Assembly (NCBI RefSeq): GCF_016026235.1
Contig: NZ_CP065613.1
Source of the DNA: Escherichia coli
GTDB lineage: Bacteria; Pseudomonadota; Gammaproteobacteria; Enterobacterales; Enterobacteriaceae
DNA length: 64,000 bases
Reading direction: 5' to 3' (one strand)
The stretch's first letter is position 1. Each line of letters starts with the position of its first letter. The position numbers were made by a program, and so were the translations under genes. Below are positions 10,078 to 10,129 of the stretch, one piece after another. The notes under the pieces were generated by a model. That model searched no databases. It saw only the letters and a program-made list of their open reading frames with translations, and was not told where the DNA came from.

Positions 10078-10129
10078 TTGGTTAAATTGCGAGCGAGATC
10101 GCGTCTTCGATTGACTGCAATTTAACCAA
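10078..10129. repeat. Perfect 13-bp inverted repeat (ttggttaaattgc / gcaatttaaccaa) with a 26-bp spacer, just downstream of bioD
   Basis: Read directly; possible bioD terminator or protein-binding site. Confidence 0.4.

What the first reader, a model, noticed from the sequence alone, without database searches (positions are those of the whole stretch)
10078..10129. 13-bp perfect inverted repeat with 26-bp spacer downstream of bioD
ttggttaaattgc ... gcaatttaaccaa begins 12 nt after the bioD stop, and the spacer itself contains a smaller palindrome (gagcgagatcgcg). It may be a large terminator hairpin for the bio operon or a regulatory site at the distal end of the long uvrB control region.
Basis: seen in the sequence. 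Interest (0 to 1): 0.3.

Follow-up and report, generated by a model that had tools for sequence, protein, structure and literature searches.

The report
Escherichia-only hairpin after bioD
The inverted repeat just after the E. coli biotin operon is real and found only in the genus Escherichia, at the spot where a neighbouring gene was deleted; it most likely folds into a hairpin at the end of the biotin-operon mRNA, which is an ordinary kind of feature and is unproven here.

Summary
The 13-bp perfect inverted repeat (10078-10090 / 10117-10129, 26-nt spacer; 16 nt at 94% if extended) is present as described. It exceeds chance: 2 such repeats in the window against 0.08 expected. It is single-copy and occurs in 5424 of 5426 complete E. 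coli genomes.

It is not conserved across Enterobacteriaceae. All 10 Escherichia sequences pair at 10-13 of the 13 positions. The other 68 aligned loci (other genera) pair at 0-7.

Most enterobacteria carry a minus-strand sigma54/NtrC-type UrtE-like ABC ATPase gene between bioD and uvrB. Escherichia deleted it, and the repeat sits at that scar. Its spacer holds the relic of a widely conserved TGTGA-N6-TCNCA (CRP-like) element.

The + strand RNA hairpin is stable (-20.9 kcal/mol, z about -4). The arms are more conserved than their flanks. Arm changes are mostly G-U compatible on the + strand, and one strain shows a C-G to U-G to U-A replacement.

It is not a canonical intrinsic terminator: the stem is AU-rich, the interior is 26 nt and there is no U-tract. 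Two published 3'-end catalogues call nothing across this region, so they are uninformative.

Best reading: a lineage-specific 3' hairpin of bioBFCD mRNA, acting as a weak terminator or exonuclease barrier (confidence 0.45). Main rival: a neutral palindrome left by the deletion. Interest is low to moderate.

The parts
10064..10066 (+). bioD stop codon (TAG), the end of the bioBFCD operon coding sequence
   Evidence: ORF 9383-10066; annotated bioD in RefSeq K-12
10078..10090 (+). Left arm of the inverted repeat (TTGGTTAAATTGC). It is largely ancestral sequence: Citrobacter ATGGTGAAAATGC, Leclercia TTGGTTAAAATGT.
10117..10129 (+). Right arm of the inverted repeat (GCAATTTAACCAA). This is the more derived arm; the closest outgroup is Salmonella CCACATTAGCCAA, 9/13.
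10075..10132 (+). Full hairpin-forming element: 16-nt arms at 94% plus the 26-nt interior. As RNA it folds at -20.8 kcal/mol, z -4.6.
10088..10103 (.). Inner element TGCGA-GCGAGA-TCGCG, containing a GATC. It is orthologous to a TGTGA-N6-TCNCA (CRP-like) motif conserved in Citrobacter, Salmonella, Enterobacter, Lelliottia, Phytobacter, Kosakonia and Siccibacter. In Escherichia it is degenerate (7/10 half-site positions).
10104..10116 (+). Fast-evolving right half of the interior or loop: 10 of 13 columns vary among Escherichia.
10067..10077 (+). Junction left by deletion of the UrtE-like gene, its sigma54 promoter and its NtrC-like sites. All 11 columns vary among Escherichia.
10130..10165 (+). 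A/T-rich tract following the hairpin (TTAAATTCTAAAATAATCACGAAAAAAATTTTAC). It is homologous to the AAAATAGCGATAAWWTTTTTT tract of other genera and is not a U-tract adjacent to the stem.
10225..10249 (.). Context: the DARS1 / uvrBp3 DnaA-box pair (GTTATCCAC...GTGGATAAC), the first published control element downstream of the repeat.
   Evidence: PMC6015884

Best explanation
The repeat encodes a genus-specific RNA stem-loop in the 3' untranslated end of the bioBFCD transcript.

Shown:
- Most Enterobacteriaceae have a convergent sigma54/NtrC-type UrtE-like ABC ATPase gene abutting bioD.
- The Escherichia lineage has no trace of that gene or its promoter. bioD therefore lies about 160 bp from DARS1 and the uvrB promoters.
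- The two arms became complementary only in Escherichia, around an older CRP-like element that now forms the interior.

Inferred:
- When the bio operon is transcribed, RNA polymerase runs 11 nt past the stop codon and transcribes the repeat. The RNA folds into a 13-16 bp AU-rich stem with a 26-nt interior.
- Because there is no U-tract, the hairpin probably does not release polymerase efficiently by itself.
- More likely it marks the mature 3' end by blocking 3'-to-5' exonucleases after leaky or Rho-dependent termination further downstream. It may also cause weak pausing or termination that limits biotin-regulated read-through into DARS1 and uvrB.
For: - Position and strand: the stem starts 9-12 nt after the stop of the last gene of the operon.
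- Stability: -20.9 kcal/mol, with 0 of 300 dinucleotide shuffles as stable (z -4.1). Other Escherichia species give z -4.2 to -5.3.
- The hairpin is the MFE fold in all Escherichia lineages examined except one.
- Derived state: Escherichia pairs at 10-13 of 13 positions, against 0-7 of 13 at homologous columns in the other 68 aligned loci.
- Every inferred change from outgroup-like sequence raises complementarity. This is my own reading of the short arm alignments.
- Constraint: arm diversity is 0.075. The immediate flanks and the loop half give 0.46, 0.30 and 0.21, and the intergenic mean is 0.129.
- Strand bias: 96.0% of cells pair on the + strand and 91.3% on the - strand, with 9 G-U cells against 2.
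- One compensatory path: C-G, then U-G in strains CU532-9 and Z1323MEC, then U-A in strain Z1323HEC0300.
- Convergence: two other lineages that lost the gene, Salmonella and Intestinirhabdus, have unrelated stable hairpins within 70 nt after bioD (z -2.2 to -4.0).
Against: - No U-tract, only 4 of 13 G-C pairs and a 26-nt interior. The terminator scan does not call it.
- In a wider 106-nt context the fold z-score is only -1.85.
- Covariation is not significant: shuffle controls reach the observed values in 203-310 of 500 trials, and only one pair changes on both sides.
- The compensatory strain was chosen as the most divergent of 5424 genomes, which is a selection bias.
- Gene-less Citrobacter (amalonaticus, koseri, sedlakii) have no comparably stable hairpin (z +0.5 to -1.4).
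- One Escherichia lineage (MOD1-EC7003) has three changes in the left arm (two G-U compatible, one A-C mismatch) and folds differently.
- No 3' end is recorded at this site in Adams 2021 or the TRS tables. Those tables call nothing at all for bioA, bioBFCD or uvrB.
- A preprint groups bioBFCD and uvrB in one maximal transcription-unit cluster, which hints at read-through.
Confidence: 0.45

Rival explanations
1. Neutral by-product. The palindrome arose in the Escherichia ancestor during or after the deletion of the UrtE-like gene. One route is a template-switch (quasipalindrome-correction) event that copied one arm from the complement of the other. It has persisted without function simply because the genus is young.
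For: - The repeat lies exactly at the deletion junction and is restricted to one genus.
- The left arm is nearly ancestral (11/13 with Leclercia, 10/13 with Citrobacter). Most changes could therefore sit on the right arm, as a single templated event predicts.
- It has no canonical terminator or operator features.
- Covariation statistics are not significant.
- 23.5% of 26-nt windows in the intergenic region are at least as conserved as the arms.
Against: - The arms are much better conserved than the sequence on either side and the loop half. Arms vary at 6 of 26 columns; those adjacent segments vary at 50 of 80.
- Pairing is retained at 10-13 of 13 positions across Escherichia species whose intergenic regions differ by about 14-16%.
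- Substitutions are biased to G-U on the + strand, with one compensatory replacement.
- The right arm still shares 9/13 with Salmonella. That is more than expected if it had been copied wholesale from the left arm.
Confidence: 0.3
2. DNA-level protein-binding site. The element acts as double-stranded DNA: the inner TGCGA-N6-TCGCG as a weak CRP-type site, and/or the outer arms as a bipartite operator. It would influence uvrBp3, DARS1 or the local nucleoid structure.
For: - The inner element is orthologous to TGTGA-N6-TCNCA, conserved across many genera. Its left half is among the best conserved parts of the region in Escherichia (diversity 0.068).
- The repeat lies inside the -567 to +33 fragment needed for full uvrB promoter activity in reporter work. 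That study did not dissect this part (PMC6015884).
- Perfect DNA symmetry in E. coli.
Against: - The arms are absent in all other genera that share DARS1 and the uvrB promoters.
- The arm centres are 39 bp apart, and the inner element is not concentric with them (centres 10095.5 and 10103.5).
- The variants preserve RNA G-U pairing rather than DNA symmetry.
- The E. coli inner site has 3 of 10 mismatches to the CRP half-sites, and its ancestral partner promoter (sigma54 on the minus strand) is deleted.
- There is no DnaA or LexA box in the repeat.
- It is not like the BirA operator: 6/10 half-site similarity, everted orientation, spacing 26 against 16.
Confidence: 0.15
3. Canonical Rho-independent terminator of the bio operon. 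The hairpin alone releases RNA polymerase efficiently at about 10130-10140.
For: It is on the correct strand, sits immediately after the last gene, and forms a stable hairpin.
Against: - The tail is UUAAAUUC (4 U in 8) after the 13-bp stem, or AAUUCUAA after the extended stem.
- The stem is AU-rich and the interior is 26 nt.
- The consensus scan does not detect it.
- There is a hint of bioBFCD-uvrB co-transcription.
Confidence: 0.08

Closest known systems
Rho-independent (intrinsic) terminators at operon ends
   Same: A stem-loop encoded on the sense strand a few nucleotides after the stop codon of the last gene in the operon.
   Different: There is no U-tract. The stem is AU-rich (4 of 13 G-C pairs). 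The interior is 26 nt instead of a 3-8 nt loop. The consensus scan does not call it.
Protective 3' stem-loops that define the mature ends of Rho-terminated transcripts (Dar and Sorek 2018, PMC6061677)
   Same: A stable hairpin without a U-tract downstream of a coding region. This is the class that fits the anatomy best.
   Different: Neither a mapped 3' end at the hairpin base nor Rho dependence has been shown for bioD.
CRP operator (TGTGA-N6-TCACA)
   Same: The interior holds TGCGA-N6-TCGCG. Its orthologues in other genera read TGTGA-N6-TC(T/G/C)CA with a conserved GATC.
   Different: The Escherichia copy has 3 of 10 mismatches. The neighbouring sigma54 promoter and NtrC-like sites of relatives are deleted. 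CRP binding has not been shown in any species.
Quasipalindrome correction / template-switch mutation
   Same: A cluster of nearby changes that all raise the complementarity of an imperfect palindrome, located at a rearrangement junction.
   Different: Both arms keep above-chance similarity to outgroup sequence. The event itself cannot be reconstructed from present data.
bioO, the BirA operator of the same operon (window 6381-6420)
   Same: An AT-rich inverted repeat in the bio locus. It shares ATTTGGTT with one strand of the left arm.
   Different: Half-site identity is only about 6/10. The half-sites face outward rather than inward. Spacing is 26 against 16 bp.

Membership tests
Rho-independent terminator | G+C-rich stem of about 5-14 bp closed by a short (3-8 nt) loop | tested here: not met
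   The 13-bp stem has 4 G-C pairs and the interior is 26 nt. The scan does not report it.
Rho-independent terminator | U-rich tract (at least 5 U in 8) directly 3' of the stem | tested here: not met
   The tail is TTAAATTC (4 of 8) after the 13-bp stem, or AATTCTAA (3 of 8) after the extended stem.
Rho-independent terminator | Sense-strand location just downstream of the last gene of a transcription unit | tested here: met
   The stem begins 9-12 nt after the bioD stop.
Rho-independent terminator | Transcript 3' ends mapped at the tail | not testable with these tools
   The Adams 2021 curated list and the TRS tables contain no 3' end between 807.4 and 815.5 kb, so the bio and uvrB transcripts are not covered at all.
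3'-end protective stem-loop of Rho-terminated mRNAs | Thermodynamically stable stem-loop downstream of the coding sequence, more stable than composition predicts | tested here: met
   -20.9 kcal/mol, z -4.1 (70 nt) and -4.6 (hairpin alone), 0 of 300 shuffles. Other Escherichia give z -4.2 to -5.3.
3'-end protective stem-loop of Rho-terminated mRNAs | Mature 3' end at the hairpin base, with bicyclomycin- or Rho-dependent extension | not testable with these tools
   No data are available for this locus.
Structured RNA under selection (covariation) | Compensatory base changes beyond what relatedness explains | tested here: inconclusive
   96% of cells pair. Three pairs vary by G-U only and one pair changes on both sides. 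Shuffles reach the observed values in 203-310 of 500 trials. The minus-strand control gives 91.3%.
CRP binding site | TGTGA-N6-TCACA symmetric half-sites | tested here: inconclusive
   E. coli has 7 of 10 half-site positions. Orthologues in other genera have 8-9 of 10. There are no binding data.
Dispersed repeat (REP/BIME, ERIC/IRU, MITE) | Multiple copies per genome | tested here: not met
   The median is one place per genome in 5424 genomes. There is no further copy of the arm in the window beyond one 2-mismatch chance hit.
Known RNA family (Rfam 15) | A match to any covariance model | tested here: not met
   There is no relevant hit in 9000-11500 even at E up to 10.
uvrB / DARS1 control elements | DnaA box (TTWTNCACA) or LexA box (CTGT-N8-ACAG), conserved together with DARS1 across genera | tested here: not met
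   No box with up to 1 mismatch lies in 10067-10225. The arms are absent in all genera that share the DARS1 region.
BirA operator (bioO-like) | Inward-facing TTGTAAACC half-sites with about 16-bp spacing | tested here: not met
   Comparison with the window's own bioO at 6381-6420: about 6/10 identity, everted orientation, 26-bp spacing.

The most novel reading that the evidence does not exclude
After the Escherichia ancestor deleted a convergent nitrogen-regulated gene, bioD came to lie directly next to DARS1 and the uvrB promoters. A new RNA hairpin was then built by directional substitutions on both arms around an obsolete CRP-type operator. Selection maintains it to end or stabilise bio mRNA and to shield DARS1/uvrB from biotin-regulated read-through. 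This would be a datable case of a transcript-end element born de novo at a deletion scar.
Probability: 0.2. Interest if true: 0.45.

Novelty: new member of a known kind. Interest (0 to 1): 0.27.

Why it matters
If the hairpin does set the 3' end of bioBFCD mRNA, it would be a small but clean example of how a transcript-end structure arises within one genus after a neighbouring gene is lost. The outgroup states are known and the age is bounded by the Escherichia radiation.

It also bears on whether biotin-regulated transcription runs into DARS1 (a DnaA-reactivating site) and uvrB.

Practically, the work explains why the bioD-uvrB spacer is long. It holds DARS1, three uvrB promoters, and the leftover upstream control region of a lost sigma54-dependent gene.

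None of this changes current understanding of termination or of the bio operon.

Tried and rejected
- Rfam scan of 9000-11500 at E up to 10: only two irrelevant snoRNA-type chance hits.
- Dispersed repeat or MITE: rejected. The element is single-copy per genome.
- Second BirA operator: rejected on half-site identity, orientation and spacing against the window's own bioO.
- DnaA or LexA box within the repeat: none.
- Remnant coding sequence of the lost gene in the E. coli spacer: none at tblastn E up to 10. Other ABC ATPase hits in the window are paralogues elsewhere.
- Published 3'-end data:
  - Adams 2021 supplements were searched by gene name and coordinate.
  - TRS 2023 tables were read around the locus.
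  - TERMITe and SMRT-Cappable-seq supplements have no bioD or uvrB entry.
  - Three papers have no supplements held.
  - All of these are silent rather than negative, because nothing is called for bioA, bioBFCD or uvrB.
- Literature on CRP binding here: the search returned only false matches to 'biodegradative' and 'biodiesel', plus the RpoD SELEX entry for uvrBp1.
- My first chance simulation timed out and was redone.

Full report
**Observation**

The window is the E. coli bio-uvrB region. bioD ends with TAG at 10064-10066 and uvrB starts at 10645. The repeat TTGGTTAAATTGC / GCAATTTAACCAA is at 10078-10090 and 10117-10129, with 26 nt between the arms. The repeat finder extends it to 16-nt arms (10075-10090 / 10117-10132) at 94% complementarity.

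Perfect inverted repeats of at least 13 bp with a 3-60 nt spacer occur twice in the window. A first-order Markov model expects 0.08. The other repeat (48102-48131) matches the hairpin of a published rhtA 3' end.

It is best written TGCGA-N6-TCGCG at 10088-10103.

**Distribution**

- The 74-nt element is present once per genome in 5424 of 5426 complete E. coli genomes.
- Nothing is annotated under it.
- It matches no Rfam family.
- It is not a dispersed repeat.

**What the locus looked like before**

A scan of one genome per species with BioD returned 80 enterobacterial loci. In Escherichia the bioD-uvrB gap is 573-578 bp. In three Citrobacter species (amalonaticus, koseri, sedlakii) it is 563-567 bp, and in Salmonella about 650 bp.

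In Enterobacter, Klebsiella, Kosakonia, Lelliottia, Phytobacter, the freundii-group Citrobacter and most others the gap is about 1.4 kb. The extra DNA is a minus-strand gene of 221-238 codons, convergent with bioD and abutting or overlapping its end.

- Its product is a LivF/UrtE-like ABC ATPase (TIGR03410, E 1e-58, below the family cut-off).
- Upstream of it on the minus strand, nearly every such locus has TGGCA-N6-TTGCA, a sigma54 -24/-12 type motif. Many also have TGCAC-N7-GGTGCC, an NtrC-type motif.
- Further right comes a conserved AAAATGTGA-N6-TCNCA block, then an A/T tract, a hairpin of variable sequence, and the invariant DnaA-box pair of DARS1.

E. coli positions from about 10186 to 10644 align with all these genera at about 70-80%. 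That stretch corresponds to DARS1 and the uvrB promoters p3, p2 and p1, with their DnaA and LexA boxes (PMC6015884; boxes located).

Escherichia retains no trace of the ABC gene. Its sigma54 and NtrC-like motifs are gone too. The alignment resumes at the CRP-like block, only 11-17 nt after the bioD stop. The repeat therefore sits on a deletion scar, and its interior is the relic of the CRP-like element.

**The repeat is a derived character of Escherichia**

I counted Watson-Crick pairs at the alignment columns of the 13 pairs.

| Group | Pairs out of 13 |
|---|---|
| E. coli, cryptic Escherichia lineages, E. whittamii, E. albertii (10 sequences) | 10-13 |
| The other 68 aligned loci (other genera) | 0-7, mostly 2-6 |

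The left arm is close to outgroup sequence: 10/13 with Citrobacter ATGGTGAAAATGC and 11/13 with Leclercia TTGGTTAAAATGT. The right arm is more changed, at best 9/13 with Salmonella.

By my reading of these short alignments, every difference from outgroup-like sequence raises complementarity. That points either to selection for pairing or to a templated (template-switch) mutation. The data cannot separate the two origins.

**Is it maintained?**

Mean pairwise difference among nine Escherichia sequences:

| Segment | Mean pairwise difference |
|---|---|
| Arms | 0.075 |
| 11 nt between stop and repeat | 0.46 |
| Right half of the interior | 0.30 |
| Next 56 nt | 0.21 |
| Whole spacer | 0.129 |
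| DARS1 area | 0.061 |

The pattern is conserved stems, a conserved left interior (the CRP-like relic, 0.068) and a fast-evolving loop half. However, 23.5% of 26-nt windows in the spacer are at least as conserved as the arms, so the constraint is moderate.

**RNA or DNA?**

- As + strand RNA the element folds at -20.9 kcal/mol.
- In the 70 nt after the stop this is z -4.1, with no shuffle out of 300 as stable. Other Escherichia give z -4.2 to -5.3.
- In a 106-nt frame the z-score is only -1.85.
- The minus strand folds about as well.
- On an alignment of ten distinct Escherichia sequences, 96.0% of cells pair on the + strand and 91.3% on the - strand. Nine variant cells are G-U on the + strand against two on the - strand.
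- The innermost pair is C-G in most strains, U-G in CU532-9 and Z1323MEC, and U-A in Z1323HEC0300. That is the classical compensatory path through a wobble intermediate.

These observations favour a sense-strand RNA structure, but they are not statistically significant. Shuffle controls reach the observed scores in 203-310 of 500 trials. I also found the compensatory strain by looking at the most divergent hits.

**Terminator or not?**

The element fails the two structural criteria of intrinsic terminators.

- The stem has 4 of 13 G-C pairs and the interior is 26 nt.
- The tail is UUAAAUUC after the 13-bp stem and AAUUCUAA after the extended stem.
- The consensus scan does not call it.

The class it fits is the U-tract-less protective stem-loop described at the mature ends of Rho-terminated transcripts (PMC6061677).

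There is some indirect support for a hairpin being wanted at this position. Salmonella (GCAGGATC-agac-GATCCTGC followed by TGTTCTCTC) and Intestinirhabdus have unrelated, significantly stable hairpins within 70 nt of the bioD stop (z -2.2 to -4.0). The gene-less Citrobacter species do not (z +0.5 to -1.4).

**Experimental record**

- The curated Term-seq list of Adams et al. 2021 has no entry for bioD, and none with coordinates 812.1-812.6 kb.
- The TRS tables jump from 807.39 kb (ybhB) to 815.57 kb (ybhK). They call nothing for bioA, bioBFCD or uvrB.
- These catalogues are therefore silent, not negative. The operon is probably too weakly expressed under the conditions used.
[quoted passage not shown] This weakly suggests read-through.
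- The uvrB promoter study cloned -567 to +33, which includes the repeat, but did not dissect that part.

**Verdict**

The 'terminator hairpin' idea is plausible only as a non-canonical 3' stem-loop.

The most informative result is evolutionary. The repeat is an Escherichia-specific structure at the scar of a lost sigma54-type gene, wrapped around a relic CRP-like site.

| Explanation | Confidence |
|---|---|
| Sense-strand 3' hairpin of bio mRNA | 0.45 |
| Neutral by-product of the deletion | 0.30 |
| DNA-level binding site | 0.15 |
| Efficient canonical terminator | 0.08 |

It is a new member of a known kind, of modest interest.

Noticed in passing
L013-L083 (e.g. L019 3679-5115; L069 3679-5052); absent at window 10067-10077: Most Enterobacteriaceae have an orphan UrtE/LivF-like ABC ATPase gene (221-238 aa) on the minus strand between bioD and uvrB. 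It is preceded by a sigma54-type TGGCA-N6-TTGCA motif and an NtrC-type TGCAC-N7-GGTGCC motif. Escherichia, Salmonella, Intestinirhabdus and three Citrobacter species have lost it completely. Citrobacter sp. R56 (L016) keeps only the last 35 codons.
   Followed up: partly
window 10084-10105; orthologous sites e.g. L026 intergenic position about 875-897: A TGTGA-N6-TCNCA (CRP-like) motif with an internal GATC is conserved across many genera, just beyond the NtrC-like sites. The E. coli copy (TGCGAGCGAGATCGCG) is degenerate. Whether CRP binds it in any species is unknown.
   Followed up: partly
L003 about 3463 (equivalent to window about 10412): In E. coli strain ZH063 the match to the bioD-uvrB spacer stops after ...cataaaactgtcat (window about 10412), between DARS1 and the uvrB p1/p2 promoters. 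Phage terminase genes (large subunit and a P27-family small subunit) lie about 0.8 kb beyond, which suggests a prophage inserted there.
   Followed up: partly
window 10168-10180: A small GC hairpin (CCGC-ctcat-GCGG) is preceded by an A7T4 tract. Across genera the position holds hairpins of unrelated sequence between conserved flanks. This suggests a structure-conserved element between the CRP-like site and DARS1.
   Followed up: no
window 48102-48131: This is the only other perfect inverted repeat of at least 13 bp in the window (TTCTGCATGGTTA-TGCA-TAACCATGCAGAA). It matches the hairpin of the published rhtA primary 3' end in the TRS table.
   Followed up: partly
window 10225-10249: The simple terminator scan flags GTTATCCACTATTCCTGTGGATAAC as terminator-like. 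It is in fact the inverted DnaA-box pair of DARS1/uvrBp3, invariant across all genera examined.
   Followed up: yes
L030 and L040, 24-43 nt after the bioD stop: Salmonella has an 8-bp GC-rich hairpin (GCAGGATC-agac-GATCCTGC) followed by TGTTCT(C/T)TC directly after bioD. It looks much more like a terminator than the E. coli repeat does.
   Followed up: partly
K-12 815.8 kb (outside the finding; window about 13.7 kb): Both TRS tables list a + strand 3' end at about 815,826, antisense to ybhK and about 1 kb beyond the end of uvrB. No 3' end is called at the uvrB stop itself.
   Followed up: no
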